The position numbers and the translations under genes were made by a program. DNA of 64,000 nucleotides. Source: a virus. Its lineage: Duplodnaviria; Heunggongvirae; Uroviricota; Caudoviricetes. Below are positions 3,100-64,000 of the stretch, in pieces. The stretch lies in IMG/VR virus record IMGVR_UViG_2897358383_000002. The stretch is one strand, 5' to 3'. A model generated the notes under the pieces. That model saw only the letters and a program-made list of their open reading frames with translations. It did not search any database and had not been told where the DNA came from. Within the stretch, counting starts at the first letter, position 1. Every line of letters begins with the position of its first letter.

Positions 3100-3103
<4 letters not shown>
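1541..3103 (+). CDS. hsdM: Type I restriction-modification system N6-adenine methyltransferase subunit HsdM
   Basis: 520 aa; AdoMet motif [10 protein letters not shown] and catalytic NPPY ([12 protein letters not shown]); stop overlaps hsdS start. Confidence 0.9.
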
Positions 3104-4356
<1,253 letters not shown>

Positions 4357-4477
4357 TTGACCATTGCTACAGACCGGCTCACCTTAACATCCGGTCAGTA
4401 TATAGACTATTTTTTACGCGCCGGAAGTCACTCTTAACGCCCTTCCGGCTCTTGCCAGGCGGCACAAAGGATGCGCT

Positions 4478-7400
4478 ATGACTCATCAAACACACACCAT
4501 TGCTGAATCCAATAACTTTATCGTCCTTGATAAGTACATCAAAGCTGAGCAAACAAGCGACAGCTACCAGAGCGAATCGGACCTGGAACGTGAACTGATT
4601 CAGGACCTGCGGAATCAGGGTTATGAATTTATTTCCGTAAAATCACAGTCGGCAATGCTGTCTAATGTTCGGGAACAGCTTCAGAGCCTCAATGGTGTGA
4701 TGTTTAATGACAGCGAGTGGCGGCGCTTCACGGAGCAGTATCTGGACAACCCCAGCGATGGTATTCTGGATAAAACCCGTAAAATCCATATCGACTATAT
4801 CTGCGACTTTATTTTTGACGACGGGCGACTTGAGAACATCTATTTGATAGATAAAAAGAATCTCATGCGCAATAAGGTGCAGATTATCCAGCAGTTTGAA
4901 CAGACGGGTTCTCATGCTAACCGTTATGACGTCACGATCCTGGTTAATGGTTTACCGCTGGTGCAAATCGAACTAAAAAAACGCGGGGTGGCGATTCGTG
5001 AGGCTTTCAACCAGATACATCGTTACAGTAAAGAGAGTTTTAACAGCGAAAATTCCCTGTTTAAGTATCTGCAACTGTTTGTCATTTCTAACGGCACCGA
5101 TACCCGTTATTTTGCCAACACAACAAAGCGCGATAAAAACAGTTTTGACTTCACCATGAATTGGGCGAAATCAGACAACACGCTGATTAAAGACCTCAAA
5201 GACTTTACCGCTACCTTTTTCCAGAAACATACTCTGCTGAATGTTCTGGTGAACTACAGCGTTTTTGACAGTAGTCAGACGCTACTGGTGATGCGACCGT
5301 ACCAGATTGCCGCCACCGAACGAATCTTATGGAAAATCAACAGCTCCTATAAAGCGAAAAACTGGTCTAACCCCGAAAGCGGTGGCTTTATCTGGCACAC
5401 TACCGGTTCTGGTAAAACACTGACCAGCTTTAAAGCCGCGCGTCTGGCAACAGAACTGGACTTTATTGATAAAGTCTTCTTCGTGGTCGACAGGAAAGAC
5501 CTCGATTACCAGACCATGAAGGAATATCAGCGTTTTTCGCCAGACAGCGTCAACGGCTCGGAAAATACCGCAGGCCTTAAACGAAATCTGGATAAGGACG
5601 ATAACAAAATTATCGTCACTACTATTCAGAAACTCAATAACCTGATGAAAGCAGAAAGCGACCTGTCTGTATATAATCAGCAAGTGGTGTTTATATTTGA
5701 TGAATGCCACCGCAGCCAGTTTGGAGAAGCGCAGAAAAACCTGAAGAAGAAATTCAAACGCTATTATCAGTTTGGTTTTACCGGCACACCTATTTTCCCG
5801 GAAAACGCCTTAGGCTCAGAAACGACCGCCAGCGTATTTGGTCGTGAATTGCATTCGTATGTAATTACCGATGCGATTCGTGATGAAAAAGTGCTCAAAT
5901 TCAAGGTGGACTACAACGATGTGCGGCCACAGTTTAAGTCTTTAGAGACAGAAACTGACGAGAAAAAACTAAGTGCGGCTGAAAATCAGCAGGCGTTTCT
6001 TCATCCCATGCGTATACAGGAAATTACGCAATATATTCTGAATAACTTCCGCCAGAAGACCCACCGTACTTTCCCAGGTTCCAAAGGCTTTAATGCTATG
6101 TTGGCAGTGAGCAGCGTGGATGCTGCAAAAGCCTATTACGCGGCGTTTAAACGGTTACAAGAGGAAGCCGCTAATAAATCTGCAACTTATAAACCGCTGC
6201 GTGTTGCGACAATCTTCTCCTTTGCCGCTAATGAAGAACAAAATGCCATTGGTGAAATTTCCGATGAAACTTTTGATACCAGCGCAATGGACAGCAGTGC
6301 TAAAGAGTTTCTTGACGCTGCAATTCGTGAGTATAACAGCTATTTTAAAACTAACTTCAGCACCGACGGTAACGGTTTTCAGAACTACTATCGCGATTTA
6401 GCCCAACGGGTTAAAAATCAGGATATCGATCTGTTAATTGTCGTGGGGATGTTTTTAACTGGCTTCGATGCTCCAACATTGAACACGCTATTCGTCGATA
6501 AAAACCTGCGTTTTCACGGCTTGATGCAGGCATTTTCCCGCACCAACCGTATTTATGATGCAACTAAAACCTTCGGTAATATCGTCACTTTCCGGGATCT
6601 GGAACGCTCAACTATTGATGCCATAACGCTGTTTGGTGACAAAAACACCAAAAATGTGGTTTTAGAAAAGAGTTATGCAGAGTATATGGAAGGCTTTACT
6701 GATGCTGCCACTGGTGAAGCTAAGCGCGGCTTTATGGCAGTAGTTTCAGAACTGGAACAACGGTTCCCTGACCCTGCCAGTATTGAAAGTGAAAAAGAGA
6801 AGAAAGACTTCGTTAAACTGTTTGGTGAATACCTGCGTGCCGAGAACATCCTGCAAAACTATGATGAATTTGCCACGCTGAAAGCCCTGCAACAAATCGA
6901 TCTTAGCGATCCTGTTGCGGTAGAAAAATTCAAAGAAGAACATTATGTGGATGATGAAAAGTTCGCTGAATTGCAAACGATTCGTCTCCCTGCTGAACGC
7001 AAGATTCAGGATTATCGTTCTGCCTATAACGATATTCGTGACTGGCAGCGCCGCGAGAAAGAAGCTGATAAAAAAGAAAAATCAACCACTGACTGGGATG
7101 ACGTGGTTTTTGAGGTCGATTTGCTGAAGTCTCAGGAAATAAACCTGGATTATATCCTTGGACTGATTTTCGAACACAACAGACAAAATAAAGGCAAGGG
7201 CGAAATGATCGAAGAGGTCAAACGCTTAATTCGTTCAAGCCTGGGGAACCGGGCGAAAGAGGGCCTGGTGGTCGATTTTATTCAGCAAACGAACCTGGAT
7301 GATTTACCAGACAAAGCCAGTATCATTGAGGCATTCTTTACGTTTGCTCAACGCGAACAGCAACGTGAAGCAGAAGCATTGATAAAAGAAGAAAATCTCA

Positions 7401-7594
7401 ATGAAGATGCAGCAAAACGCTATATTCGCACGTCTTTAAAACGCGAATACGCCACCGAAAATGGCACAGAATTAAACGAAACATTACCAAAACTTAGTCC
7501 GTTGAATCCGCAATATAAAACGAAAAAACAGGCAGTTTTCCAGAAAATCGTCTCGTTTATTGAGAAGTTTAAAGGCGTAGGCGGAAAAATATAG
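4478..7594 (+). CDS. hsdR: Type I R-M restriction endonuclease/translocase subunit HsdR
   Basis: 1038 aa; Walker A TGSGKT, DEAD-like FDECHR, N-terminal nuclease-like region; length fits Type IC HsdR. Confidence 0.9.
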
Positions 7595-39588: not shown

Positions 39589-40221
39589 ATGTTTGTGCCT
39601 GTACTGTTAAAGGGGGACTCTAAAATGGCTGTGATTCCAATGTCGTACTCCCCGGGTACTGTCGCTCGTCGATTTTCGATCCTGGACGGAGTTACCATCC
39701 AGGGTGTGCTTTACCAGGTTATATGGGATTCCAAAACCCCATTTGCAGCTGTAATAGAGGCTGCGCCTTCTGTTATCGATGGTGATATGCGCCATAAGGT
39801 TGTCGCTACTCTTGAACTTCAACGTCGCCCGCAGCTTGAAGGCGTACTGGTAAGGAAGTTCTGGGAGGATAGCGATGTTGCCCAGATTGAAGGTATCGTG
39901 GTTGATGGAACCGTCCGGGATGTCGGTTTAGCTACTTTTGTTTACGAAACCGTAGCCTCAAAAGCTGGTGTTGTTTTGCTCAGTGATAATGAGCAATACG
40001 AAGGTGGAAAAGCTCTTTGGCAACACATCGCCCGTCGCTCTTCCGAGCTAAAAGTGTTTATCCTCGACACCGATGCCGCTCAGTATTACCCGTTTGACGG
40101 CGAACGTGTTTGCTATGACGGGGTAAGTATTCCTGAATCCGAGATATGGAGTGAACACCCAGATCGAAGTAAGCATGGGGTTGTTCTGGTCGCTGAATCC
40201 ATAATTGGAAAGGCGGCATAG
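39589..40221 (+). CDS. hypothetical protein
   Basis: 210-aa ORF after an AT-rich promoter-like spacer. Confidence 0.4.
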   Translation: MFVPVLLKGDSKMAVIPMSYSPGTVARRFSILDGVTIQGVLYQVIWDSKTPFAAVIEAAPSVIDGDMRHKVVATLELQRRPQLEGVLVRKFWEDSDVAQIEGIVVDGTVRDVGLATFVYETVASKAGVVLLSDNEQYEGGKALWQHIARRSSELKVFILDTDAAQYYPFDGERVCYDGVSIPESEIWSEHPDRSKHGVVLVAESIIGKAA

Positions 40222-40403
40222 CAGTAAAAAATTCCTTGCTCCTAAAAAGGGGAGAGGGCTAATCTACGTATGCTAAGCATAGATATGGCCTCAGATTAAT
40301 GTTAAGCGTCTTGCAGGACGCGTAATGTTATCTGGGGCTTTCTTCTATCTGCTTGTCGGGTAATGCCTGAAGCAGATAGCCTCAAGCACCCGCAGCGATT
40401 GTA

Positions 40404-43801: not shown

Positions 43802-44115
43802 AGTTACGGCCTCATTCGTAGGTTTAACAACCTGCGCCCCGCTGCTAAACGGGTGGCAGGACGTGACGGGGTTAGCAGACTGGCACGAATGAAACCAGCA
43901 GGCCGAAGCCTCCCCATCACGCCCCACCATAATTCGGGCGTAACGTGGTTTTACGGACACAAAAATTCCGCAATATCGGATATCTGCGGTTGTCCGCATT
44001 CGTATTCAGGCTGCTAAACCCGGTCGCAGAATTTGCTACGACGGCGGAACTATAAGCCTGAACGATTAAAAGGTCAATATGATGCGAAAAGATAGCATTC
44101 GCGACTTAAAAATAC

Positions 44116-51951: not shown

Positions 51952-53381
51952 GTAAAACAACACCGACTAAAGACAGTATTCGTGCAGAGTTTGAAGAGCT
52001 TGTCGAGAAAGATTCATTCTGGTCGAAGTTTGTCGGCTCTCAATTTGTCTCGATGCTGACATTGTTTATTACCCAGATTGTCTACAGGTGCTTTCAGTAT
52101 GCCGATGCGGCGCTGGCTGAAGGCTTTATATCGACCGCGACGCGGCGTTCCTCTATCCTGGCAGCGGCAGAAACGAATAGTTACGTTGGTACCAAGCCAA
52201 CACCGTCATCGGGGATGATTGAGATCACCGCCACAAGTGAAGATGCCCCAGCGGTAATCCCCAAAAATATGCCTTTAATATCTGACGACCAGTACCCTTA
52301 CATGACTATGGATGTATGCAGGTTGGTTGACGGCACCGGTACGGTAGAAGTGGCACAGTTGGAAATCCAGGAGGTGACATATACCGTTACGGCAGCCAAA
52401 GAATTTCTGGAAGTCGTGTTATCAAAGGCTCTCACTGCTGTCTGCTATAAGCTGGAAGTATTCGTGACGACCGATGGTAAGACCACGCAGTGGTCTTCCA
52501 GCACTATGTTCCGGTTAGCCGGTAGTAAAAGCCAGGTCTACGTTGAGTTTTATAAGCCATCCGAGCAGTTGGGGGTTCGATTCGGTGATGGGCTAATTGG
52601 GCAAATACCGCCAGAAGGCTCGACCATTACACTTAAGGTATGGTGCACCAACGGAGATATAACCCTGGTTGCTGGCCAAAACCTGACGCCTGTCGATTCT
52701 GCGGCTAATTTAGCTAATTTGATTTCAGTTAAGACAACGACACCCATAACCGCAGGTACCGATGCCGAAACAACGGAGATCACACGTAATCGTGCACAAT
52801 ATTACCTTGCCTATGATGATCAGGTCGTATGGGGCGGGGACTATACGTATTTTTTGGTGCGTAACATCCCGGGACTGTCCTGGGTAAAGGCATGGGGCGA
52901 AGGCCAGCAAGAGAAATTAGATGGTGCTTATAATGTTCGGAATATCAATAAGATATTTATTTCAGGATGGCATCCAAACAAAAGCCAGTCAGAGCTTGAA
53001 GAAGTGATCCTGGCTGCCTTTAAGAAGGTGCCGAATGAGTTGAACAAGAAATTCTCGTATAAAGAGGTCAGAAAACTCCCCTTTAAGATCACTATCACTG
53101 GGCGGATATCGGCAAGCCTGACCATTGAGAACGTGACTGATGAGCTGAAGTCGGCACTGGAAACAAAATTTGGGCGTGACTCAACTTTCTTTGATCCGAA
53201 CCGTGTCGGCAAGTACATCCTAATCAAGAAAAAAGACGTTTGGGCATTTATCGAAACGCTGGGTTATTTCCGCGACTTTTATCTGGAATTTGTCGAGTGG
53301 AATGAGTCCAACGGCTTTTACGATTTCGTTTATCTGGATACAGAAAACTCCACCTTTAATATTTCGTATGAGGAGGAGTGA
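51948..53381 (+). CDS. baseplate protein
   Basis: 477-aa ORF in the tail operon. Confidence 0.5.
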   Translation: MSKTTPTKDSIRAEFEELVEKDSFWSKFVGSQFVSMLTLFITQIVYRCFQYADAALAEGFISTATRRSSILAAAETNSYVGTKPTPSSGMIEITATSEDAPAVIPKNMPLISDDQYPYMTMDVCRLVDGTGTVEVAQLEIQEVTYTVTAAKEFLEVVLSKALTAVCYKLEVFVTTDGKTTQWSSSTMFRLAGSKSQVYVEFYKPSEQLGVRFGDGLIGQIPPEGSTITLKVWCTNGDITLVAGQNLTPVDSAANLANLISVKTTTPITAGTDAETTEITRNRAQYYLAYDDQVVWGGDYTYFLVRNIPGLSWVKAWGEGQQEKLDGAYNVRNINKIFISGWHPNKSQSELEEVILAAFKKVPNELNKKFSYKEVRKLPFKITITGRISASLTIENVTDELKSALETKFGRDSTFFDPNRVGKYILIKKKDVWAFIETLGYFRDFYLEFVEWNESNGFYDFVYLDTENSTFNISYEEE

Positions 53382-54217
53382 TGCAGCGTTCCTGGTTTAA
53401 TAACCGGCTTACATCAGCTAAGCAAAAGTCATTACTTTATAAATCATTGGCTGATTTGGTTCAGTCAATGATGGACACCTTTGTTGACCCATGGTTGGAG
53501 CGAATTACCAACCGGAAGTCTATTTTCTCCATGAGCAAGGAGGATCTGGAGACTAGGACAAATGAACTTGGCCAGTTTTTTACTATCAGAACGTCGAATT
53601 CATCTTCCGTTCCGATGTTGTTACAACAGCGGTTTGATGAGATCCATTTTAAGGGTACTGAACGCCCTATAAACCAGACAATTTATCGCGAATTTAACGG
53701 TATATCGGTTTTATGGGATCCAATATATGCTCCGGTGGACTTTGAACGTCATCCCTATGGCACGGTCCTGATTCCAGAAAGCACACTGGAAACCACCGGC
53801 GGCACATTCGGCGAGATGTTTCTGACTTCCAGAGGAATGATCAGTATTCCCATAAACGACCTGGCCCGGACAATGGGTATTACTGGAACGATAGATCAGT
53901 CCGCAATTACAGAAGAAATTCTCAGAAAGTTTAATCAGTTCGTAAAGCCTCTACTGCCACTGCATATAGTGTTTGATGGGCTTACGCTCTATTTGTCGGT
54001 TGTTGTAAATGAACAGGCCGACATGATCACTTTGAATGAGATTTCTGATACCGAAAAAGCATTCTGCTGGTTTGAAACTTCGGATACAACTTCGCTTACT
54101 GAAGTTACGTCGATTAACGCCCCGATCACTGCAACGCCGGGCGGCACTATTGTGAAAGCAACGCCTACGTTTGATCGCACCCGCGCAGATGATTTGCTGT
54201 TGGATAGCGATGCGTGA
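53378..54217 (+). CDS. baseplate/tail-fibre-associated protein
   Basis: 279-aa ORF; a partial inverted copy recurs at the window end. Confidence 0.5.
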   Translation: MMQRSWFNNRLTSAKQKSLLYKSLADLVQSMMDTFVDPWLERITNRKSIFSMSKEDLETRTNELGQFFTIRTSNSSSVPMLLQQRFDEIHFKGTERPINQTIYREFNGISVLWDPIYAPVDFERHPYGTVLIPESTLETTGGTFGEMFLTSRGMISIPINDLARTMGITGTIDQSAITEEILRKFNQFVKPLLPLHIVFDGLTLYLSVVVNEQADMITLNEISDTEKAFCWFETSDTTSLTEVTSINAPITATPGGTIVKATPTFDRTRADDLLLDSDA

Positions 54218-54295
54218 CAATCACCCCGTCCGCAGGGCGGGGTGACAAGTTACTTATCTTACAATGAGGCTTCACAACATTGATTAGGGAAAATC

Positions 54296-54730
54296 ATGTC
54301 TGACGTCTCAACAAACCTCTATAAGAGTCAGTTGTTGGACTATTACTATCAGCGGCGCGCTGAATCGTCCATTAACAAAGGCTCTCGATTTTTAATCAGC
54401 AAGGCCGTTTTCGGTACCAGTTCACTGGTTACTAAGAAAGGAGATGGCACTTATGAGATTGGAGAACTGCCAAAGGCTTTCGATCTGGCAGAACTGACCA
54501 GTCAATTTTGCACCATCAACCTCGTCCCAACCTACTCAGGCGGGATAATTACTGTCCGAATGGACCTTGATCAAAGTCAGTTGCAGGAAGGGAAAAACTA
54601 CCCATTCAACACTCTGGTTGTTCTGGATAACGAGAATAAGCCAATCGCCATTATTTGTGTCCAGGAAGACTCGCTGTATGTGGGCAAAACATATACCGCA
54701 GTTATGGCCATAAACTCGACTACAGCATAA
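54296..54730 (+). CDS. tail-fibre-associated protein
   Basis: 144-aa ORF directly upstream of the tail-fibre gene; identical inverted copy at 63068..63502. Confidence 0.5.
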   Translation: MSDVSTNLYKSQLLDYYYQRRAESSINKGSRFLISKAVFGTSSLVTKKGDGTYEIGELPKAFDLAELTSQFCTINLVPTYSGGIITVRMDLDQSQLQEGKNYPFNTLVVLDNENKPIAIICVQEDSLYVGKTYTAVMAINSTTA

Positions 54731-54741
54731 GGATATGCTTG

Positions 54742-57666
54742 ATGAATGACGTTACAGTTGTTACATCGGTTACTTACCCATCACCCGAGTCGTTGGCTCT
54801 GGTGGCTGATGTGCAATACCACGAACCATATCTGTCAGCCGCTCTAAACCGAAAATTCAGGGGAATTGTTGACCCGGGATTTTATGCTGGTTTCTTGCCT
54901 AAGCCTGGCGGTGGGATGAACCTGTTAATCACCTCAGTGGATGGAGATAAAACCGCTGGCGCGGCGTCAGTGGATATTGGTGAATTCTACCAGGTAACTA
55001 TTCAGCATCGTAAGGATATCTCTCTTGCACTTAACGCAGGCAAGAAATATGCAATTGTGCTGAAGGGAAGATACCTTCTTGGAGAAGATACCTATCAGGT
55101 GAATACCGCGTCACATATTCATGCAGCTGAATTTGTTGCCAGAACCTATACCGATTCATATCAGTTAGGTGATGGGGAACTGCTGGTTTGTACGGTGAAT
55201 ATCCCTGCTGGCGTATCTACCATTACTCAAGAGATGATTGATACATCCGAGCGTATCAACCGCACGATCGGCATTGATATTTCAGACTCTGTAACCAGTA
55301 CCAGAAGTGATGTTGCTGCGAGTTCGCTGGCAGTTAAAAAAGCCTACGATCTGGCGAAAAGCAAGTATACGGCGCAGGATGCAAGCACAACGCAAAAGGG
55401 ATTAGTTCAGCTCAGTAGTGCCACTAACAGTACGTCCGAAGTGCTGGCCGCCACACCGAAAGCTGTCAAGGCTGCATATGACCTGGCTAACGGGAAGTAT
55501 ACAGCCCAGGATGCAACCACGACACAAAAAGGGATAGTTCAGCTCAGTAGCGACACCAACAGCACTTCTGAAACATTAGCTGCAACGCCAAAAGCGGTTA
55601 AAGCTGCATACGATCTAGCAGCCGGAAAGGCACCATCCAGTCATACACATCCCTGGAATCAGATCACTGGTGTGCCAACAGCTTCATTGACAGCGAAAGG
55701 CATCACTCAGCTCAGTAGTGCCACTAACAGCACGTCTGAAGTGCTGGCCGCCACACCGAAAGCTGTCAAGGCTGCATATGACCTGGCTAACGGGAAGTAT
55801 ACAGCCCAGGATGCAACCACGACACAAAAAGGGATAGTTCAGCTCAGTAGCGACACCAACAGCACTTCTGAAACATTAGCTGCAACGCCAAAAGCGGTTA
55901 AAGCTGCATACGATCTAGCAGCCGGAAAGGCACCATCCAGTCATACACATCCCTGGAATCAGATCACTGGTGTGCCAACAGCTTCATTGACAGCGAAAGG
56001 CATCACTCAGCTCAGTAGTGCCACTAACAGCACGTCTGAAGTGCTGGCCGCCACACCGAAAGCTGTCAAGGCTGCATATGACCTGGCTAACGGGAAGTAT
56101 ACAGCCCAGGATGCAACCACGACACAAAAAGGGATAGTTCAGCTCAGTAGCGACACCAACAGCACTTCTGAAACATTAGCTGCAACGCCAAAAGCGGTTA
56201 AAGCTGCATACGATCTAGCAGCCGAAAAAGCACCATCCAGTCATACACATCCCTGGAATCAGATTACTGGTGTGCCAACAGCTTCATTGACAGCGAAAGG
56301 CATCACTCAGCTCAGTAGTGCCACTAACAGCACGTCTGAAGTGCTGGCCGCCACACCGAAAGCTGTCAAGGCTGCATATGACCTGGCTAACGGGAAGTAT
56401 ACAGCCCAGGATGCAACCACGACACAAAAAGGGATAGTTCAGCTCAGTAGCGACACCAACAGCACTTCTGAAACATTAGCTGCAACGCCAAAAGCGGTTA
56501 AAGCTGCATACGATCTAGCAGCCGGAAAGGCACCATCCAGTCATACACATCCCTGGAATCAGATCACTGGTGTGCCAACAGCTTCATTGACAGCGAAAGG
56601 CATCACTCAGCTCAGTAGTGCCACTAACAGCACGTCTGAAGTGCTGGCCGCCACACCGAAAGCTGTCAAGGCTGCATATGACCTGGCTAACGGGAAGTAT
56701 ACAGCCCAGGATGCAACCACGACACAAAAAGGGATAGTTCAGCTCAGTAGCGACACCAACAGCACTTCTGAAACATTAGCTGCAACGCCAAAAGCAGTTA
56801 AAGCTGCATACGATCTAGCAGCCGGAAAGGCACCATCCAGTCATACACATCCCTGGAATCAGATCACTGGTGTGCCAACAGCTTCATTGACAGCGAAAGG
56901 CATCACTCAGCTCAGTAGTGCCACTAACAGCACGTCTGAAGTGCTGGCCGCTACACCGAAAGCTGTCAAGGCTGCATATGATTTGGCTAATGGAAAGCAA
57001 GCGGCAGACGCTACGCTCACTGCTCTAGCGGCACTAGCTACCGCAGCAGATAAACTCCCTTATTTCACAGGGGTTGATCGTGCCGCGTTAACTGCACTGA
57101 CAAGTGTTGGACGTGCAATTCTTAGTAAGCCCAGTATTCAGAGCGTTCTTAATTACCTTGGTTTAGGGGAAGGCTCGGCGCTGCCCGTTGGTGTACCTGT
57201 TCCATGGCCCTCAGCCACACCACCAACGGGGTGGCTGAAATGTAACGGAGCAGCATTTTCTTCTGAAAAGTACCCAAATCTGGCAAAGGTTTACCCAACG
57301 TTAAAATTACCTGATTTACGCGGTGAGTTTATCCGTGGTTGGGATGATTCGAGAGGGATTGATACAGGGCGTTCATTGCTAAGTGGTCAGACTGCAACAT
57401 TTATTCGTACAGCTTTGCAGGATTATTACGGTGTCGATCTGACTACTAATGTCAAAGTAGGTATCGCTTATGCTACTGCTGATTCTGTTATAACTGTTGG
57501 AAACCCTGCTAATCCTAAAGCAGGAGATAATAGCGATTATGTTCCAGCATCATCAGATAACTCCATAACAGGCACTCAAAGGACGGCAGAGGATAATTTT
57601 ACCGGGGCATGGATATCAATGCGCCCCCGCAACGTTGCTTTTAATTACATCGTAAGGGCAGCATGA
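54742..57666 (+). CDS. tail fibre protein (constant part fused to currently expressed variable C-terminal cassette 1)
   Basis: 974 aa from ATG at 54742 (RBS AAGGA); five 100-aa tandem repeats; C-terminus ends with conserved RPRN(I/V)AFNYIVRAA shared by all cassettes. Confidence 0.85.
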   Translation: MNDVTVVTSVTYPSPESLALVADVQYHEPYLSAALNRKFRGIVDPGFYAGFLPKPGGGMNLLITSVDGDKTAGAASVDIGEFYQVTIQHRKDISLALNAGKKYAIVLKGRYLLGEDTYQVNTASHIHAAEFVARTYTDSYQLGDGELLVCTVNIPAGVSTITQEMIDTSERINRTIGIDISDSVTSTRSDVAASSLAVKKAYDLAKSKYTAQDASTTQKGLVQLSSATNSTSEVLAATPKAVKAAYDLANGKYTAQDATTTQKGIVQLSSDTNSTSETLAATPKAVKAAYDLAAGKAPSSHTHPWNQITGVPTASLTAKGITQLSSATNSTSEVLAATPKAVKAAYDLANGKYTAQDATTTQKGIVQLSSDTNSTSETLAATPKAVKAAYDLAAGKAPSSHTHPWNQITGVPTASLTAKGITQLSSATNSTSEVLAATPKAVKAAYDLANGKYTAQDATTTQKGIVQLSSDTNSTSETLAATPKAVKAAYDLAAEKAPSSHTHPWNQITGVPTASLTAKGITQLSSATNSTSEVLAATPKAVKAAYDLANGKYTAQDATTTQKGIVQLSSDTNSTSETLAATPKAVKAAYDLAAGKAPSSHTHPWNQITGVPTASLTAKGITQLSSATNSTSEVLAATPKAVKAAYDLANGKYTAQDATTTQKGIVQLSSDTNSTSETLAATPKAVKAAYDLAAGKAPSSHTHPWNQITGVPTASLTAKGITQLSSATNSTSEVLAATPKAVKAAYDLANGKQAADATLTALAALATAADKLPYFTGVDRAALTALTSVGRAILSKPSIQSVLNYLGLGEGSALPVGVPVPWPSATPPTGWLKCNGAAFSSEKYPNLAKVYPTLKLPDLRGEFIRGWDDSRGIDTGRSLLSGQTATFIRTALQDYYGVDLTTNVKVGIAYATADSVITVGNPANPKAGDNSDYVPASSDNSITGTQRTAEDNFTGAWISMRPRNVAFNYIVRAA
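55321..57000 (+). repeat. 300-bp tandem repeats (about 5.5 units, each with two diverged 150-bp sub-repeats) inside the tail-fibre gene
   Basis: Near-identical units starting at 55621, 55921, 56221, 56521, 56821 with a diverged unit before. Confidence 0.9.
57145..57170 (+). other. candidate invertase crossover site A (hix/gix-like), junction of constant tail-fibre part and cassette 1
   Basis: Start of the homology block shared by all cassettes; attaccTTGGTTTaggggaagg resembles hix/gix half-sites. Confidence 0.4.
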
Positions 57667-57683
57667 AAACGTTGGTTTGGGGG
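57658..57683 (+). other. candidate crossover site B
   Basis: gcatGAAAACGTTGGTTTgggggaagg, imperfect dyad resembling hix (TTCTTGAAAACCAAGGTTTTTGATAA as recalled). Confidence 0.4.
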
Positions 57684-58105
57684 AAGGCTCTGCACTGCCT
57701 GTTGGTGTGCCCGTTCCGTGGCCCTTAGAAACACCACCAACGGGCTGGCTAAAATGTAACGGAGCAGCATTTTCTTCTGAAATGTATCCCAAACTGGCAA
57801 AAGCCTACCCCACCAATAAATTACCGGATTTACGCGGTGAATTTATCCGTGGCTGGGATGATGGGCGCGGGATTGATGCGGGACGTACCCTGCTTTCAGG
57901 GCAGGATGGTACAAGTTTTTCTCATTACGGAGGTAATTTCGACATTGGGTCTGGTCATTCAATCAATAACTATGACCAAATTGTTTCTAACCAACCAGGA
58001 TTTTCCCGTTTTTCATTTGCAGGGCCTTCACGAGGTGATGGGGTTAATTATGTAACCATTCGTCCTCGTAACATTGCGTTTAATTATATCGTAAGGGCGG
58101 CATGA
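57677..58105 (+). CDS. silent alternative tail-fibre C-terminal cassette 2
   Basis: Begins with conserved GEGSALPVGVPVPWP...PTGWLKCNGAAFSS and ends ...RPRNIAFNYIVRAA; distinct variable middle. Confidence 0.6.
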   Translation: MGEGSALPVGVPVPWPLETPPTGWLKCNGAAFSSEMYPKLAKAYPTNKLPDLRGEFIRGWDDGRGIDAGRTLLSGQDGTSFSHYGGNFDIGSGHSINNYDQIVSNQPGFSRFSFAGPSRGDGVNYVTIRPRNIAFNYIVRAA

Positions 58106-58123
58106 AAACGTTGGTTTGGGGGA
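58098..58123 (+). other. candidate crossover site C
   Basis: Same catgaaaacgttggtttggggg motif as site B. Confidence 0.4.
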
Positions 58124-58574
58124 AGGCTCTGCACTGCCCGTTGGCGTGCCCGTTCCGTGGCCATCAGCCACACCTCCAACGGGGTGGCTGAAATGCAATG
58201 GCGCAGCATTTTCTTCTGAAAAGTACCCAAATCTGGCAAAGGTTTACCCAACGTTAAAATTACCTGATTTACGCGGTGAGTTTATCCGTGGTTGGGATGA
58301 TGGGCGAGGTGTGGATGCGGGAAGGGTCATCTTAAGCATACAGGGGTGGTTAACAGGAAGTCATTATCATAATATTCGGTCATGGGACGCGTGGGATAAC
58401 ACGGTATTGGTGCCAAATGACAGAGGGGGGGATAGCCTGTTGTCGACAGATAACGCCGTCCAAGAAGGAGCGATTAATGGTAAATTTACCAGTCAATACA
58501 GAACGGAGTTATCTGGGGGGAATGAAACCCGCCCACGTAACATTGCCTTCAATTATATTGTGAGAGCAGCATAA
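58116..58574 (+). CDS. silent alternative tail-fibre C-terminal cassette 3
   Basis: Same conserved ends as cassette 2 with a different variable core. Confidence 0.6.
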   Translation: MGEGSALPVGVPVPWPSATPPTGWLKCNGAAFSSEKYPNLAKVYPTLKLPDLRGEFIRGWDDGRGVDAGRVILSIQGWLTGSHYHNIRSWDAWDNTVLVPNDRGGDSLLSTDNAVQEGAINGKFTSQYRTELSGGNETRPRNIAFNYIVRAA

Positions 58575-59185
58575 TGGATAATGCGATATTAAATAGCGAA
58601 CTTATAGCCATACAGGCAGGAAACATTATCGTTTATAACTATGATGGTGGTAATCGGGAATATATTTCTGCATCAACTGAATATCTTGCTGTTGGCGTTG
58701 GTATTCCGGCACATTCTTGTTTGGATGCTCCAGGCTCACATAAAGCAGGTTATGCGATTCTCCGTTCAGAGGATTTAAGTTCATGGGAGTATGTGCCAGA
58801 TCATCGTGGCGAAACTGTCTATAGCATTGACACAGGGAATCCCGAAGAAATCACGGTGTTGGGTGACTATCCGGAAAATACAACCACTATCGCCCCGCTA
58901 ACACCATACGACAAATGGGATGGAGAGAAATGGGTGGTTGATACTGAGGCTCAACATAGTGCAGCTGTAGAGGCAGCAGAAACAAAACGTCAGTCATTGA
59001 TTGATACTGCGATGGATTCCATTAGTCTGATTCAGTTGAAATTACGGGCTGGACGGAAGTTGACGCAGGCAGAAACCACGCAGCTTAACTCCGTGCTAGA
59101 TTATATAGACGAGCTGAACGCGATGGATTTAACCACGGCACCAGATCTCAACTGGCCTGAAAAACAACTTTCTACAGCCAGTTGA
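58574..59185 (+). CDS. tail fibre assembly chaperone (Tfa/U-like)
   Basis: 203 aa; typical Tfa N-terminal region; located inside the cassette region. Confidence 0.75.
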   Translation: MDNAILNSELIAIQAGNIIVYNYDGGNREYISASTEYLAVGVGIPAHSCLDAPGSHKAGYAILRSEDLSSWEYVPDHRGETVYSIDTGNPEEITVLGDYPENTTTIAPLTPYDKWDGEKWVVDTEAQHSAAVEAAETKRQSLIDTAMDSISLIQLKLRAGRKLTQAETTQLNSVLDYIDELNAMDLTTAPDLNWPEKQLSTAS

Positions 59186-59190
59186 TATAA

Positions 59191-59688
59191 TTAATCCGCC
59201 CTCACAATATAATTAAATGCAATATTACGAGGGCGGGTTTCTAAGCCAGCAGTACCTAAATTAGCTACGGACTGTTTATATGTTTTAAAAGTTCCATAAT
59301 TAGGGGCTGGCAATCCTGCATCGCTTGTGTTCCCCCATCTGATAACTCCCGTATTACCACTAGTAGCCCATGCCTCGTCAAAGTAGAAATTAATTGAGCT
59401 GTCAGTTGCTACGGTTGATTTTGACGGTAATCCGTGAGCATGATCCTCCGTTGCATATCCTTGCTCGCTTAAAATAGAGCGACCTGGATCAATCCCGCGC
59501 CCGTCATCCCAGCCACGAATGAACTCACCACGTAAATCAGGCAATTTATTTGTCGGGTAAGCCTTTGCCAGATTTGGGTACTTTTCAGAAGAAAATGCTG
59601 CACCATTGCATTTCAGCCACCCCGTTGGAGGTGTGGCTGAAGGCCACGGAACAGGGACACCAACAGGTAATGCAGAGCCTTCTCCCAA
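59191..59688 (-). CDS. silent alternative tail-fibre C-terminal cassette 4 (inverted orientation)
   Basis: Intact 165-aa ORF with conserved N- and C-terminal cassette ends on the minus strand. Confidence 0.6.
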   Translation of the reverse strand: MGEGSALPVGVPVPWPSATPPTGWLKCNGAAFSSEKYPNLAKAYPTNKLPDLRGEFIRGWDDGRGIDPGRSILSEQGYATEDHAHGLPSKSTVATDSSINFYFDEAWATSGNTGVIRWGNTSDAGLPAPNYGTFKTYKQSVANLGTAGLETRPRNIAFNYIVRAD

Positions 59689-59706
59689 ACCAACGTTTTT
59701 ATGCCG
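59681..59706 (-). other. candidate crossover site D (inverted)
   Basis: cccaaaccaacgtttttatg, reverse complement of the site B/C motif. Confidence 0.4.
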
Positions 59707-60135
59707 CCCTTACGATGTAATTAAATGCGATATTTCGTGGACGGGTTACTCCCCATATTACCTCCCTCGTGAATGAAGTGTCGGTGATGATCAAATCCTC
59801 TGTATTGTCATCAGATCCATCCTTGGTGTATGTTTTTTTGAAATGTCCCAGCTCCCATTCATCTTTTGTGTCGTAACCATCATGCTACAAAATATGTCGA
59901 TGCTTTCAGCATTCCTGTCTGAATGCCAATAAAGCACGTCCCGCATCCACCCCGCGCCCATCATCCCAGCCGGAATAAATTCTCCCGTAATCCGGTAATT
60001 TATTGGTGGGTAGCTTTGCCAGATTTGGGTACTTTCAGAAGAAAATGCTGCACCATTGCATTTCAGCCACCCCGTTGGAGGTGTGCTGAGGGCCACGGAA
60101 CGGGACGCCAACAGGCATGCAGAGCCTTCCCCCAA
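59707..60135 (-). pseudogene. degenerate alternative tail-fibre cassette 5 (frameshifted)
   Basis: Conserved cassette ends recognisable across three frames; several indels relative to the other cassettes. Confidence 0.45.
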
Positions 60136-60153
60136 ACCAACGTTTTTTATGCT
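60128..60153 (-). other. candidate crossover site E (inverted)
   Basis: cccccaaaccaacgttttttatg. Confidence 0.4.
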
Positions 60154-63056
60154 GCCCTTACGATGTAATTAAAAGCAACGTTGCGGGGGCGCATTGATAT
60201 CCATGCCCCGGTAAAAATTATCCTCTGCCGTCCTTTGAGTGCCTGTTATGGAGTTCTGATGATGGAACATAATCGCTATTATCTCCTGCTTTAGGATTAG
60301 CAGGGTTTCCAACAGTTATAACAGAATCAGCAGTAGCATAAGCGATACCTACTTTGACATTAGTAGTCAGATCGACACCGTAATAATCCTGCAAAGCTGT
60401 ACGAATAAATGTTGCAGTCTGACCACTTAGCAATGAACGCCCTGTATCAATCCCTCTCGAATCATCCCAACCACGGATAAACTCACCGCGTAAATCAGGT
60501 AATTTTAACGTTGGGTAAACCTTTGCCAGATTTGGGTACTTTTCAGAAGAAAATGCTGCGCCGTTGCATTTCAGCCACCCCGTTGGAGGTGTGGCTGAAT
60601 GGGCCTGGAACAGGGTACGCCAAACGGGCCAGTGCAGAGCCTTCCCAAACCAAGGTAATTAAGAACGCTCTGAATACTGGGCTTACTAAGAATTGCACGT
60701 CCAACACTTGTCAGTGCAGTTAACGCACCCCTGTGAAATAAGGGAGTTTATCTGCTGCGGTAGCTAGTGCCGCTAGAGCAGTGAGCGTAGCGTCTGCCGC
60801 TTGCTTTCCATTAGCCAAATCATATGCCAGCCTTGACAGCTTTCGGTGTAGCGGCCAGCACTTCAGACGTGCTGTTAGTGGCACTACTGAGCTGAGTGAT
60901 GCCTTTCGCTGTCAATGAAGCTGTTGGCACACCAGTGATCTGATTCCAGGGATGTGTATGACTGGATGGTGCCTTTCCGGCTGCTAGATCGTATGCAGCT
61001 TTAACTGCTTTTGGCGTTGCAGCTAATGTTTCAGAAGTGCTGTTGGTGTCGCTACTGAGCTGAACTATCCCTTTTTGTGTCGTGGTTGCATCCTGGGCTG
61101 TATACTTCCCGTTAGCCAGGTCATATGCAGCCTTGACAGCTTTCGGTGTGGCGGCCAGCACTTCAGACGTGCTGTTAGTGGCACTACTGAGCTGAGTGAT
61201 GCCTTTCGCTGTCAATGAAGCTGTTGGCACACCAGTGATCTGATTCCAGGGATGTGTATGACTGGATGGTGCCTTTCCGGCTGCTAGATCGTATGCAGCT
61301 TTAACCGCTTTTGGCGTTGCAGCTAATGTTTCAGAAGTGCTGTTGGTGTCGCTACTGAGCTGAACTATCCCTTTTTGTGTCGTGGTTGCATCCTGGGCTG
61401 TATACTTCCCGTTAGCCAGGTCATATGCAGCCTTGACAGCTTTCGGTGTGGCGGCCAGCACTTCAGACGTGCTGTTAGTGGCACTACTGAGCTGAGTGAT
61501 GCCTTTCGCTGTCAATGAAGCTGTTGGCACACCAGTAATCTGATTCCAGGGATGTGTATGACTGGATGGTGCTTTTTCGGCTGCTAGATCGTATGCAGCT
61601 TTAACCGCTTTTGGCGTTGCAGCTAATGTTTCAGAAGTGCTGTTGGTGTCGCTACTGAGCTGAACTATCCCTTTTTGTGTCGTGGTTGCATCCTGGGCTG
61701 TATACTTCCCGTTAGCCAGGTCATATGCAGCCTTGACAGCTTTCGTGTGGCGGCCAGCACTTCAGACGTGCTGTTAGTGGCACTACTGAGCTGAGTGATG
61801 CCTTTCGCTGTCAATGAAGCTGTTGGCACACCAGTGATCTGATTCCAGGGATGTGTATGACTGATGGTGCCTTTCCGGCTGCTAGATCGTATGCAGCTTT
61901 AACCGCTTTTGGCGTTGCAGCTAATGTTTCAGAAGTGCTGTTGGTGTCGCTACTGAGCTGAACTATCCCTTTTTGTGTCGTGGTTGCATCCTGGGCTGTA
62001 TACTTCCCGTTAGCCAGGTCATATGCAGCCTTGACAGCTTTTCGTGTGGCGGCCAGCACTTCAGACGTGCTGTTAGTGGCACTCTGAGCTGAGTGATGCC
62101 TTTCGCTGTCAATGAAGCTGTTGGCACACCAGTGATCTGATTCCAGGGATGTGTATGACTGGATGGTGCCTTTCCGGCTGCTAGATCGTATGCAGCTTTA
62201 ACCGCTTTGGCGTTGCAGCTAATGTTTCAGAAGTGCTGTTGGTGTCGCTACTGAGCTGAACTATCCCTTTTTGTGTCGTGGTTGCATCCTGGGCTGTATA
62301 CTTCCCGTTAGCCAGGTCATATGCAGCCTTGACAGCTTTCGGTGTGGCGGCCAGCACTTCGGACGTACTGTTAGTGGCACTACTGAGCTGAACTAATCCC
62401 TTTTGCGTTGTGCTTGCATCCTGCGCCGTATACTTGCTTTTCGCCAGATCGTAGGCTTTTTTAACTGCCAGCGAACTCGCAGCAACATCACTTCTGGTAC
62501 TGGTTACAGAGTCTGAAATATCAATGCCGATCGTGCGGTTGATACGCTCGGATGTATCAATCATCTCTTGAGTAATGGTAGATACGCCAGCAGGGATATT
62601 CACCGTACAAACCAGCAGTTCCCCATCACCTAACTGATATGAATCGGTATAGGTTCTGGCAACAAATTCAGCTGCATGAATATGTGACGCGGTATTCACC
62701 TGATAGGTATCTTCTCCAAGAAGGTATCTTCCCTTCAGCACAATTGCATATTTCTTGCCTGCGTTAAGTGCAAGAGAGATATCCTTACGATGCTGAATAG
62801 TTACCTGGTAGAATTCACCAATATCCACTGACGCCGCGCCAGCGGTTTTATCTCCATCCACTGAGGTGATTAACAGGTTCATCCCACCGCCAGGCTTAGG
62901 CAAGAAACCAGCATAAAATCCCGGGTCAACAATTCCCCTGAATTTTCGGTTTAGAGCGGCTGACAGATATGGTTCGTGGTATTGCACATCAGCCACCAGA
63001 GCCAACGACTCGGGTGATGGGTAAGTAACCGATGTAACAACTGTAACGTCATTCAT
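60138..63056 (-). pseudogene. inverted near-copy of the tail-fibre gene (constant part + cassette), reading frame broken into at least 4 ORFs by small indels
   Basis: Minus-strand ORFs 60218..60433, 60820..61530, 61811..62059, 62181..63143 match successive parts of the plus-strand tail fibre; single-base indels seen by direct comparison. Confidence 0.6.
60641..60666 (-). other. candidate crossover site F (inverted mirror of site A)
   Basis: cccaaaccaaggtaattaag is the reverse complement of the site A motif. Confidence 0.35.
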
Positions 63057-63067
63057 CAAGCATATCC

Positions 63068-63502
63068 TTATGCTGTAGTCGAGTTTATGGCCATAACTGC
63101 GGTATATGTTTTGCCCACATACAGCGAGTCTTCCTGGACACAAATAATGGCGATTGGCTTATTCTCGTTATCCAGAACAACCAGAGTGTTGAATGGGTAG
63201 TTTTTCCCTTCCTGCAACTGACTTTGATCAAGGTCCATTCGGACAGTAATTATCCCGCCTGAGTAGGTTGGGACGAGGTTGATGGTGCAAAATTGACTGG
63301 TCAGTTCTGCCAGATCGAAAGCCTTTGGCAGTTCTCCAATCTCATAAGTGCCATCTCCTTTCTTAGTAACCAGTGAACTGGTACCGAAAACGGCCTTGCT
63401 GATTAAAAATCGAGAGCCTTTGTTAATGGACGATTCAGCGCGCCGCTGATAGTAATAGTCCAACAACTGACTCTTATAGAGGTTTGTTGAGACGTCAGAC
63501 AT
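63068..63502 (-). CDS. inverted duplicate of the 144-aa tail-fibre-associated gene
   Basis: Encoded protein identical to that of 54296..54730. Confidence 0.55.
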   Translation of the reverse strand: MSDVSTNLYKSQLLDYYYQRRAESSINKGSRFLISKAVFGTSSLVTKKGDGTYEIGELPKAFDLAELTSQFCTINLVPTYSGGIITVRMDLDQSQLQEGKNYPFNTLVVLDNENKPIAIICVQEDSLYVGKTYTAVMAINSTTA

Positions 63503-63576
63503 GATTTTCCCTAATCAATGTTGTGAAGCCTCATTGTAAGATAAGTAACTTGTCACCCCGCCCTGCGGACGGGGTG

Positions 63577-64000
63577 ATTGTCACGCATCGCTATCCAACA
63601 GCAAATCATCTGCGCGGTGCGATCAAACGTAGGTTGCTTTCACAATAGTGCCGCCCGGCGTTGCAGTGATCGGGGCGTTAATCGACGTAACTTCAGTAAG
63701 CGAAGTTGTATCCGAAGTTTCAAACCAGCAGAATGCTTTTTCGGTATCAGAAATCTCATTCAAAGTGATCATGTCGGCCTGTTCATTTACAACAACCGAC
63801 AAATAGAGCGTAAGCCCATCAAACACTATATGCAGTGGCAGTAGAGGCTTTACGAACTGATTAAACTTTCTGAGAATTTCTTCTGTAATTGCGGACTGAT
63901 CTATCGTTCCAGTAATACCCATTGTCCGGGCCAGGTCGTTTATGGGAATACTGATCATTCCTCTGGAAGTCAGAAACATCTCGCCGAATGTGCCGCCGGT
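63577..64000 (-). pseudogene. inverted partial copy of the 279-aa baseplate/tail gene (frameshifted near its 3' end; runs off window)
   Basis: Minus ORF 63623..63979 matches the C-terminal half of the 53378..54217 product until single-base deletions change the frame. Confidence 0.45.

What the first reader, a model, noticed from the sequence alone, without database searches (positions are those of the whole stretch)
57145..60666. Multi-cassette tail-fibre host-range switch with six hix/gix-like crossover sites (Min/shufflon-like), no invertase gene in the window
The tail-fibre gene ends in a variable C-terminal cassette, and at least four further cassettes (two direct, two inverted, one degenerate) follow, all sharing conserved ends (GEGSALPVGVPVPWP...PTGWLKCNGAAFSS and RPRNIAFNYIVRAA). 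Each cassette boundary carries an imperfect dyad (GAAAACGTTGGTTTGGGG) resembling serine-invertase sites, three in each orientation. A single Tfa chaperone gene sits in the middle. This is more complex than the two-state P1 C-segment and resembles the six-site Min system of plasmid p15B, so several receptor-binding tips could be shuffled onto one fibre. The expected Cin/Min-type recombinase gene is not in this window.
Basis: partly seen in the sequence, partly recalled or inferred. Interest (0 to 1): 0.7.

Follow-up and report, generated by a model that had tools for sequence, protein, structure and literature searches.

The report
Known tail-fibre shuffling switch, misassembled end
This is the long-known p15B "Min"-type switch that lets a P1-like phage-plasmid swap the tip of its tail fibre. 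It looks odd here (six sites, a decayed cassette, no invertase gene) only because the deposited sequence folds back on itself at the switch, which is almost certainly an assembly artefact.

Summary
The tail-fibre gene S (54742-57666) ends in a cassette. More cassettes with conserved ends follow, along with one tfa gene and repeated 26-bp crossover sites (5 gapless matches, 0 expected by chance).

The window is CP027133.1 positions 32001-96000, a P1-like phage-plasmid. Up to 59,740 it matches a 96,236-bp sister plasmid with 7 mismatches and no gaps. From about 59.7 kb to the record end the sequence is indel-ridden:
- The "degenerate" cassette is an error-laden copy of an intact sister cassette (F).
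- Everything from 60,113 onward is an inverted copy of 52,620-57,700. This includes the sixth site and the last cassette.

The 2.4-kb loop is bounded by inverted crossover sites. That is what results when reads from two inversion isomers are joined into one contig. The fold-back takes the place of the sequence that, in sisters, carries two more cassettes and a Cin/Min-family serine invertase 67 nt past the last site.

Sister plasmids carry identical cassettes in four different orders, including two isolates of one strain, so the switch is active. Six sites give 240 isomers and six tips, which is the p15B Min architecture.

Verdict: a known system and low novelty.

The parts
54247..54265 (+). 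P1 late promoter LPs (-22 box and -10) driving R-S-(cassettes)-tfa
   Evidence: An exact match to the LPs feature annotated in P1 NC_005856.
54296..54730 (+). Gene R (tail-fibre structure or assembly protein)
   Evidence: ORF. PF26881 Phage_P1_tail_fiber_R.
54742..57159 (+). Constant part (Sc) of tail-fibre gene S, including 5.3 tandem 300-nt repeats (55407-56997)
   Evidence: Twelve stretches of Phage_fiber_2. Tandem repeat. The first ~1.2 kb of the query (gene R and the start of Sc) is 97% identical to P1 and P7.
57146..57171 (+). Crossover site 1, at the Sc/cassette junction: TTCTTAATTACC TT GGTTTAGGGGAA
   Evidence: It matches P1 cixR at 20 of 26 positions when aligned on the annotated crossover dinucleotide.
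57160..57666 (+). Cassette A, currently fused to Sc and expressed
   Evidence: Collar domain at S residues 817-864. The S protein is identical in two sister plasmids.
57660..57685 (+). Crossover site 2. The TGA stop codon of cassette A lies in its left half.
57674..58105 (+). Silent cassette B (143 aa, no start codon of its own)
   Evidence: PF07484 Collar. 100% identical in four sister loci.
58099..58124 (+). Crossover site 3
58113..58574 (+). Silent cassette C. Its stop codon overlaps the tfa start (ATAATG).
58574..59185 (+). tfa, the only tail-fibre assembly chaperone gene in the array
   Evidence: PF02413 Caudo_TAP, E = 3e-30.
59190..59230 (.). 15-bp-stem hairpin just after the tfa stop codon. 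On the other strand it encodes the conserved C-terminus of cassette D. Possibly a terminator.
   Evidence: Predicted at -21.5 kcal/mol with z = -5.4; none of 200 shuffles folded as well. Any function is inferred.
59191..59691 (-). Silent cassette D' (166 aa), inverted. C-tfa-D' forms one 1581-nt segment with a crossover site at each end.
59680..59705 (-). Crossover site 4
59706..60138 (-). It is an error-laden copy of an intact sister cassette.
   Evidence: Its segment is 447 nt against 487 nt in the sisters, with 40 gap columns and 4 mismatches. F is 100% identical among four sisters.
60127..60152 (-). Crossover site 5, the turning point of the fold-back
60113..64000 (-). Fold-back arm: an inverted, indel-ridden copy of 53795-57700 (A', a copy of site 1, Sc', R', gp16'). 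It continues to the record end.
   Evidence: 98.9% identity, 9 mismatches and 19 gap openings. The tail beyond the window matches 52620-53994 with 0 mismatches and 9 gap openings, and the record ends there.

Best explanation
The locus is a p15B Min-type multiple-inversion switch of a P1-like (IncY) phage-plasmid.

How it works:
- The late promoter LPs transcribes R, S and the downstream genes.
- S consists of a constant 5' part (Sc) joined in frame, at a 26-bp crossover site, to whichever C-terminal receptor-binding cassette lies next to it.
- Every cassette begins with such a site. A Cin/Min-family serine invertase exchanges strands at the central TT between any two oppositely oriented sites. 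This flips the DNA between them and brings a different cassette next to Sc.
- The complete element has six sites: four single cassettes plus the two-headed C-tfa-D' segment. That gives 240 isomers and six alternative fibre tips.

What is wrong with the window: it shows this element truncated. The deposited record (CP027133.1) leaves the array at site 5 and runs back along the opposite strand through a second copy of cassette A, Sc, R and gp16 to the record end. The fold-back is best explained as a long-read assembly artefact that joined reads from two co-existing inversion isomers. One isomer is Sc-A-B-C-tfa-D'.... The other, read in reverse, is Sc-A-F-D-tfa'-C'-....

This accounts for the sixth site, the extra cassette, the 'degenerate' cassette and the absent invertase gene.

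Shown:
- the anatomy of the locus;
- the fold-back and its error profile;
- near-identity to sister plasmids that carry the invertase;
- natural isomers among those sisters.

Inferred:
- that the artefact arose from mixed isomers in the sequenced culture;
- that the invertase, rather than RecA, performs the inversions;
- that the cassettes change host range.
For: Source and quality of the record:
- The window equals CP027133.1 positions 32001-96000, and the record ends 1167 nt later.
- Window 1-59740 matches the sister NZ_JBQJRN010000004.1 with 0 mismatches over 36,404 nt, then 7 mismatches and 0 gaps over 23,336 nt.
- Beyond 59,740 errors appear abruptly. F' has 40 gap columns in 487 and A' has 15 in 514. 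The arm has up to 15 gap columns per 500 nt, and they rise again near the contig end.

Shape of the fold-back:
- The loop (57700-60113) is bounded by oppositely oriented sites 2 and 5, and each junction taken alone is a legitimate junction.
- An isomer beginning Sc-A-F-(C-tfa-D')' is three inversions away from the sister's arrangement.

Sister plasmids:
- In sisters the array continues with G' and F', then a 190-aa recombinase 67 nt past the last site, followed by the lyd and dar genes.
- The recombinase has PF00239 and PF02796 domains and is 74% identical to P1 Cin.
- Segments B, C-tfa-D', F and G are 100% identical in all these loci except G in L004 (99.5%, a 1-nt deletion), but appear in four different orders. 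Two of these orders come from two isolates of strain 405, on a plasmid of the same length with the same flanks.
- Left and right half-sites reassort exactly across TTGGTTT.

Sites and combinatorics:
- The sites resemble P1 cix, with site 1 matching cixR at 20 of 26 positions. The central dinucleotide coincides with the crossover point annotated in P1.
- An exhaustive search of the six-site model reaches 240 isomers.

Precedent:
- Forde et al. 2014 (PMC4134206) describe spurious PacBio contigs caused by tail-fibre inversion and warn about artefactual duplications.
- Related assemblies break inside this array or produce separate 2.5-2.6-kb contigs.
Against: - No reads were available, so neither the mixture of isomers nor low coverage over the arm could be observed directly.
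- The first 32 kb of the record could not be read. Whether the invertase gene is present elsewhere in the deposit is unknown.
- The sister has 36,496 nt where the record has 32,000, so at least 4.5 kb is unaccounted for.
- The copy of A in the arm is not a simple error-laden copy of the left A. Its first ~115 nt carry six substitutions that match cassette C. This needs either a further variant molecule or mixing during consensus building.
- The D'-F' adjacency seen in the window was not found in any of the four sister arrangements examined.
Confidence: 0.85

Rival explanations
1. The fold-back is real DNA. It could be a head-to-head (inverted) plasmid dimer, or an inverted duplication with a deletion, made by recombination between site 2 of one plasmid copy and site 5 of another. 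It would be present in at least part of the population.
For: An intermolecular exchange between two oppositely oriented sites would give exactly the order seen: Sc-A-B-C-tfa-D'-F'-A'-Sc' (reasoned). The turning point lies at a crossover site, not at a random position.
Against: - The arm and F' are full of indels, while the other 59.7 kb has none against a sister. A real, fully covered structure would give a clean consensus.
- The record ends inside the arm.
- From established knowledge, Hin/Gin/Cin-type invertases need both sites in cis on one supercoiled molecule and strongly disfavour intermolecular exchange.
- A roughly 190-kb inverted dimer could not be packaged.
Confidence: 0.07
2. The array is a decayed switch frozen in one arrangement. 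The invertase was lost and one cassette is degenerating.
For: There is no invertase gene in the window. One cassette is frameshifted. At least 4.5 kb of sister sequence is unaccounted for in the record.
Against: - The backbone has no substitutions over 36 kb against a sister that has an intact invertase and an intact F cassette.
- Forty scattered deletions confined to one 487-nt cassette cannot be natural decay on that timescale.
- The 'loss' coincides with the fold-back.
- The same cassette set occurs in four orders in sister plasmids, including within one strain.
Confidence: 0.03
3. The rearrangements are made mainly by RecA-dependent homologous recombination between the ~230-nt conserved 5' ends of the cassettes, not by a site-specific invertase.
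For: - Cassette 5' ends are 85-99% identical over more than 200 nt in both orientations.
- Six of the seven differences between the window and its sister cluster in the first 85 nt of cassette A.
- Alleles of A in different plasmids carry patches of B-, C- or F-type sequence. This indicates gene conversion.
Against: - In all the sisters compared, the left half-sites travel with the preceding cassette and the right half-sites with the following one. This confines the exchange to the 7-nt TTGGTTT.
- A Cin-family invertase lies next to the array.
- The sites match cix at the annotated crossover point.
- Conversion tracts next to crossover sites are already known for Cin (Iida & Hiestand-Nauer 1986, listed among the references seen).
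Confidence: 0.05

Closest known systems
Min multiple-inversion system of plasmid p15B (E. coli 15T-); Sandmeier, Iida, Meyer, Hiestand-Nauer & Arber 1990, and Sandmeier et al. 1991 and 1992
   Same: - It sits in a P1-related plasmid prophage.
- A constant S gene part is joined in frame to alternative 3' cassettes that have conserved ends.
- The complete element, as seen in sisters, has six crossover sites in both orientations, which bound overlapping invertible segments.
- There is a single tfa-type gene.
- The serine invertase gene lies beside the array and reads towards lydA.
- My model gives 240 isomers, the number I recall being reported for p15B.
- The P1 record annotates homology to p15B across this region.
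   Different: - Nothing differs in principle.
- The p15B sequence (X62121) was not available, so I could not compare cassettes one by one.
- Some relatives have seven or eight sites (L005, L001), which give 1,440 or 10,080 isomers.
- In this window the element is truncated by a fold-back.
Cin/cix C-segment inversion of phage P1 (and Gin of Mu, Pin of e14, Hin of Salmonella)
   Same: - The backbone is the same: the first ~1.2 kb compared (gene R and the start of Sc) is 97% identical to P1 and P7, and LPs is an exact match.
- The sister invertase is 74% identical to Cin.
- The 26-bp sites share ACCTTGGTTTA.G.GAA with the same central dinucleotide.
- A stretch 58/72 identical to the P1 enhancer lies in the 5' part of the sister invertase gene.
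   Different: - P1 has two sites, two states and two chaperone genes (U and U').
- This element has six sites, six tips and one chaperone gene.
- The P1 cin gene reads towards the C segment and overlaps cixL. Here the invertase gene reads away from the array.
R64 shufflon (Rci / sfx / pilV)
   Same: It follows the same logic. Several oppositely oriented sites shuffle alternative C-terminal segments onto a constant gene part that determines recipient or receptor specificity.
   Different: - Rci is a tyrosine recombinase and the sfx sites are unrelated.
- The target is a pilus adhesin, not a phage fibre.
- It is an analogy only.
Spurious contigs and duplications from tail-fibre inversion in long-read assemblies (E. 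coli EC958; Forde et al. 2014, PMC4134206)
   Same: Mixed inversion isomers in the sequenced culture make the assembler build alternative versions of the locus. The authors explicitly warn against merging these into the replicon.
   Different: In EC958 the alternative alleles came out as separate contigs. Here the alternative isomer appears to have been appended to the contig end as a 5-kb inverted arm and deposited.

Membership tests
Min/Cin-type (Din family) serine-invertase tail-fibre switch | A Hin/Gin/Cin/Pin/Min-family serine recombinase gene next to the invertible region | tested here: not met
   It is not in the window (tblastn, no hit). It is present 67 nt beyond the last site in plasmids that match the window almost exactly up to 59,740. 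That protein has PF00239 and PF02796 domains and is 74% identical to Cin. Its absence here coincides with the fold-back, so the failure concerns the record rather than the element.
Min/Cin-type (Din family) serine-invertase tail-fibre switch | 26-bp crossover sites with conserved half-sites around a 2-bp core | tested here: met
   Five gapless matches against 0 expected. Site 1 matches P1 cixR at 20 of 26 positions, and the central TT coincides with the crossover annotated in P1. The dyad symmetry is weak, at 5-6 of 12 positions, compared with 8 of 12 in cix.
Min/Cin-type (Din family) serine-invertase tail-fibre switch | A constant 5' gene part fused in frame at the site to alternative promoterless 3' cassettes | tested here: met
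   The site lies in the codons for LGLGEG. The silent cassettes have no start codon of their own, and each stop codon lies in the left half of the next site. Sister plasmids encode S proteins with different tips on the same Sc.
Min of p15B specifically (multiple inversion) | More than two sites, in both orientations, bounding overlapping invertible segments | tested here: met
   The window has five independent sites, 3 on the + strand and 2 on the - strand. Sisters have six, seven or eight.
Min of p15B specifically (multiple inversion) | Several isomeric arrangements actually occur | tested here: met
   Near-identical segments (100% in most loci) occur in four orders in sister plasmids, two of them in isolates of one strain. 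For this isolate itself the evidence is only indirect, from the fold-back.
Min/Cin-type (Din family) serine-invertase tail-fibre switch | A Fis-dependent recombinational enhancer in cis | not testable with these tools
   The window has no invertase gene. In the sister, the 5' part of the gene is 58/72 identical to the enhancer annotated in P1. Fis binding was not tested.
R64-type shufflon | An Rci tyrosine recombinase and sfx sites | tested here: not met
   The recombinase in the sisters belongs to the serine (resolvase/invertase) family, and the sites are cix-like.

The most novel reading that the evidence does not exclude
The fold-back reflects real molecules: head-to-head plasmid dimers or palindromic duplication-deletion derivatives made when the Min invertase recombines oppositely oriented sites on two plasmid copies. 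Invertases of this family are thought to be topologically prevented from doing this.
Probability: 0.05. Interest if true: 0.5.

Novelty: already known. Interest (0 to 1): 0.2.

Why it matters
There is little new biology. The p15B Min system has been known since 1990, and the same array is common in E. coli and Salmonella P1-like phage-plasmids.

The practical points are these:
- A record deposited as a plasmid ends in a 5-kb inverted duplication created at an active inversion switch.
- That artefact produces false pseudogenes, a false extra cassette and site, and an apparent loss of the invertase.
- Anyone scoring "decayed" or "orphan" switches from assemblies would be misled by it.
- Comparing near-identical plasmids shows that the switch is active in clinical lineages, including between two isolates of one strain.
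- The only sequence differences between two otherwise identical 96-kb plasmids lie in a conversion tract next to the crossover site.

Tried and rejected
- **Missed-adapter or hairpin chimeric read.** Rejected. Such artefacts give a perfect palindrome with no loop at a random position. Here the loop is 2.4 kb of asymmetric sequence bounded by inverted crossover sites.
- **Hairpin telomere of a linear N15-type prophage.** Rejected. The backbone is P1-like and circular in the sisters, and the arms differ by indels.
- **Finding the invertase gene elsewhere in the same record.** Not possible. The accession is in none of the annotated collections. The homolog search returned only 99%-identical cluster representatives. 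No paper mentions the accession.
- **Reading the original p15B papers** (PMC53420, PMC206102). They are not held. The six sites and 240 isomers of p15B are therefore from my own recollection, supported by my own enumeration.
- **Promoter and terminator scans** around the array and the invertase gene. Counts were at or below the shuffle mean, so they were uninformative.
- **Conserved cassette 3' ends as a general RNA or DNA hairpin.** Only the D' copy folds significantly (z = -5.4). The A, B and C copies do not.
Full report
**1. What is in the sequence**

ORF listing and repeat finding confirm the core observation.
- Tail-fibre gene S runs from 54742 to 57666 (974 aa from its ATG). It has twelve Phage_fiber_2 repeat stretches and a C-terminal Collar domain.
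- After it come two direct Collar-domain cassettes, B (57674-58105) and C (58113-58574).
- Next is a Caudo_TAP chaperone gene, tfa (58574-59185).
- Then come inverted cassettes.

Aligned cassettes share a nearly invariant 77-aa N-terminus, a variable middle of about 50-80 aa, and the invariant C-terminus RPRN(I/V)AFNYIVRA(A/D).

Each cassette starts with the motif ACSTTGGTTTRGGRGAAGGCTC. It occurs five times without gaps, three on the + strand and two on the - strand, with none expected in 100 shuffles. A sixth copy carries a 2-nt deletion.

No Hin/Gin/Cin-like gene is in the window (tblastn).

**2. Where the window comes from**

An exact-protein look-up with S found three plasmid contigs. One of them, CP027133.1 (97,167 bp), is identical to the window over the 19,259 nt that could be compared. 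The window is therefore record positions 32001-96000, and the record ends 1167 nt after it.

The element is a P1-like IncY phage-plasmid.
- The first ~1.2 kb of the query, covering gene R and the start of Sc, is about 97% identical to P1 and P7.
- The P1 late promoter LPs is an exact match at 54247-54265.
- Hundreds of E. coli and Salmonella plasmids carry the same array.

**3. The fold-back**

Window 60113-64000 is an inverted copy of 53795-57700. It is 98.9% identical, with 9 mismatches and 19 gap openings. The copy continues to the very last base of the record, where it matches 52620-53994 with no mismatches and nine gap openings.

So the sixth site, the last inverted cassette (A') and everything to the right of them are a second, reversed copy of Sc, A, R, gp16 and part of bplA.

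A whole-plasmid comparison sharpens this. Window 1-59740 matches the 96,236-bp sister NZ_JBQJRN010000004.1 with 0 differences over 36,404 nt, then 7 mismatches and no gaps over 23,336 nt.

Directly after 59,740 the quality collapses.
- A' has 15 gap columns.
- The arm shows up to 15 gap columns per 500 nt, and they rise again at the contig end.

Natural decay cannot produce this next to a backbone with no substitutions. It is the signature of a thinly supported long-read consensus.

**4. Why it folds back there**

Cutting every locus at the central TT of its sites gives the same modules everywhere: A (514 nt), B (439), the two-headed C-tfa-D' segment (1581), F (487) and G (439).

| Locus | Order of modules |
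|---|---|
| Window | Sc, A, B, C-tfa-D', F', A', Sc' |
| Sister L004 | Sc, A, B, C-tfa-D', G', F', invertase |

The loop of the fold-back (57700-60113) is bounded by oppositely oriented sites 2 and 5. Read on the other strand, the right-hand part is Sc-A-F-D-tfa'-C'-.... That is a legitimate isomer, three inversions away from the sister's arrangement.

Joining reads of two isomers through their shared B-C-tfa-D' stretch gives exactly this contig.

Forde et al. (PMC4134206) documented spurious PacBio contigs from tail-fibre inversion and warned about artefactual duplications. Related assemblies end inside this array or yield separate 2.5-2.6-kb contigs.

A missed-adapter palindrome is excluded, because the loop is long, asymmetric and bounded by sites.

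**5. The missing invertase**

In the sisters, a 190-aa recombinase gene starts 67 nt beyond the last site and is followed by the holin, lydB and darA genes.
- It has Resolvase and HTH_7 domains.
- It is 74% identical to P1 Cin.
- It is identical to a UniRef "DNA-invertase" entry seen on at least 1000 contigs.
- Its 5' part is 58/72 identical to the P1 recombinational enhancer.

In this record the fold-back sits where that gene should be.

The first 32 kb of the record could not be read. The sister has 36,496 nt in the corresponding interval, so at least 4.5 kb is unaccounted for. The gene may therefore be absent from the deposit without being absent from the plasmid.

**6. Is the switch active, and how?**

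Five near-identical plasmids show the same modules in different orders. Most segments are 100% identical between loci; the exceptions are A, which has allelic 5' ends, and G in L004.

| Locus | Order of modules |
|---|---|
| L004 | A, B, CtD, G', F' |
| L005 | A, F, B, CtD, H', G' |
| L007 | (CtD)', B', F', A', G' |
| L008 | B, F, A, (CtD)', G' |

L007 and L008 are two isolates of strain 405. They carry a plasmid of the same length with identical flanks but encode different S proteins.

Across all of these loci, the left half-sites stay with the preceding cassette and the right half-sites with the following one. This confines the exchange to TTGGTTT. The central TT is the crossover dinucleotide annotated in P1 cix, and site 1 matches cixR at 20 of 26 positions. 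That fits site-specific strand exchange by the serine invertase.

An exhaustive search of the six-site model reaches 240 isomers, six expressed tips, and tfa co-oriented with S in half of them. From my own recollection, 240 is the number reported for p15B Min.

**7. Comparison with known systems, and verdict**

This is the p15B Min architecture on a P1 backbone. It works like Cin/cix of P1 but has six sites and one chaperone gene. It resembles the R64 shufflon only by analogy.

The features that raised its interest are explained by a fold-back misassembly. Those features are six sites with three in each orientation, a degenerate cassette and no invertase.

Novelty: already known. Interest: low.

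**8. Residual puzzles**

- The arm's copy of A carries C-type substitutions in its first ~115 nt.
- Six of the seven differences between the window and its sister lie in the first 85 nt of cassette A. Other sisters carry further mosaic alleles of that stretch. This points to gene conversion next to the crossover site.
- In L007 and L008 the only tfa gene is antisense to S.

Noticed in passing
window 57165-57243: Six of the only seven differences between the window (1-59740) and a 96-kb sister plasmid lie in the first 85 nt of the expressed cassette A, just 3' of the crossover site. Alleles of A in other sisters carry patches of B-, C- or F-type sequence there. This looks like gene conversion among the cassette 5' ends.
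   Followed up: partly
window 59190-59230: A 15-bp-stem hairpin (-21.5 kcal/mol, z = -5.4) sits just after the tfa stop codon. On the other strand it encodes the conserved C-terminus of cassette D. The equivalent stretches of A, B and C do not fold significantly. It may be a terminator for the R-S-tfa transcript.
   Followed up: partly
L007 and L008 (strain 405 plasmids), and half of the modelled isomers: When the C-tfa-D' segment is flipped, the only tfa gene is antisense to S. P1 avoids this by having two chaperone genes, U and U'. How the chaperone is expressed in these isomers is unclear.
   Followed up: no
L002/L003 (CP083412.1, S. Typhi plasmid) and NZ_CP035313.1 (hit H29): Resistance genes are inserted inside the cassette array of related phage-plasmids. 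One carries ISEcp1-blaCTX-M-15 between cassettes. In the other, ISApl1 and mcr-1.1 lie under the match.
   Followed up: no
L005 15436-15937 and L004 14951-15389: Sister arrays contain genuine pseudo-cassettes. H in L005 is A-like and has three in-frame stops. G in L004 has a 1-nt deletion in the G run of its site. L001 has eight sites and L005 has seven.
   Followed up: partly
NZ_JBQJRM010000009.1 (L012), NZ_JBQJRM010000005.1, NZ_JBQJRS010000019.1: Other assemblies of this plasmid lineage break inside the array. One is a linear contig ending in a cassette, and there are separate 2.5-2.6-kb contigs holding the invertible segment.
   Followed up: partly
window 55407-56997: S contains 5.3 tandem copies of a 300-nt (100-aa) unit at 98% identity. 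This is an expansion of the repeated elements annotated in P1 Sc.
   Followed up: no
window 1541-7594, 21145-22805, 40217-40391, 43849-44055: Ordinary P1-type cargo was seen: type I restriction-modification genes (named from the matching sister annotation), three tRNA genes (Met, Thr, Asn), a sok-like antitoxin RNA, and the C4 antisense RNA with its a1/b1 targets.
   Followed up: no
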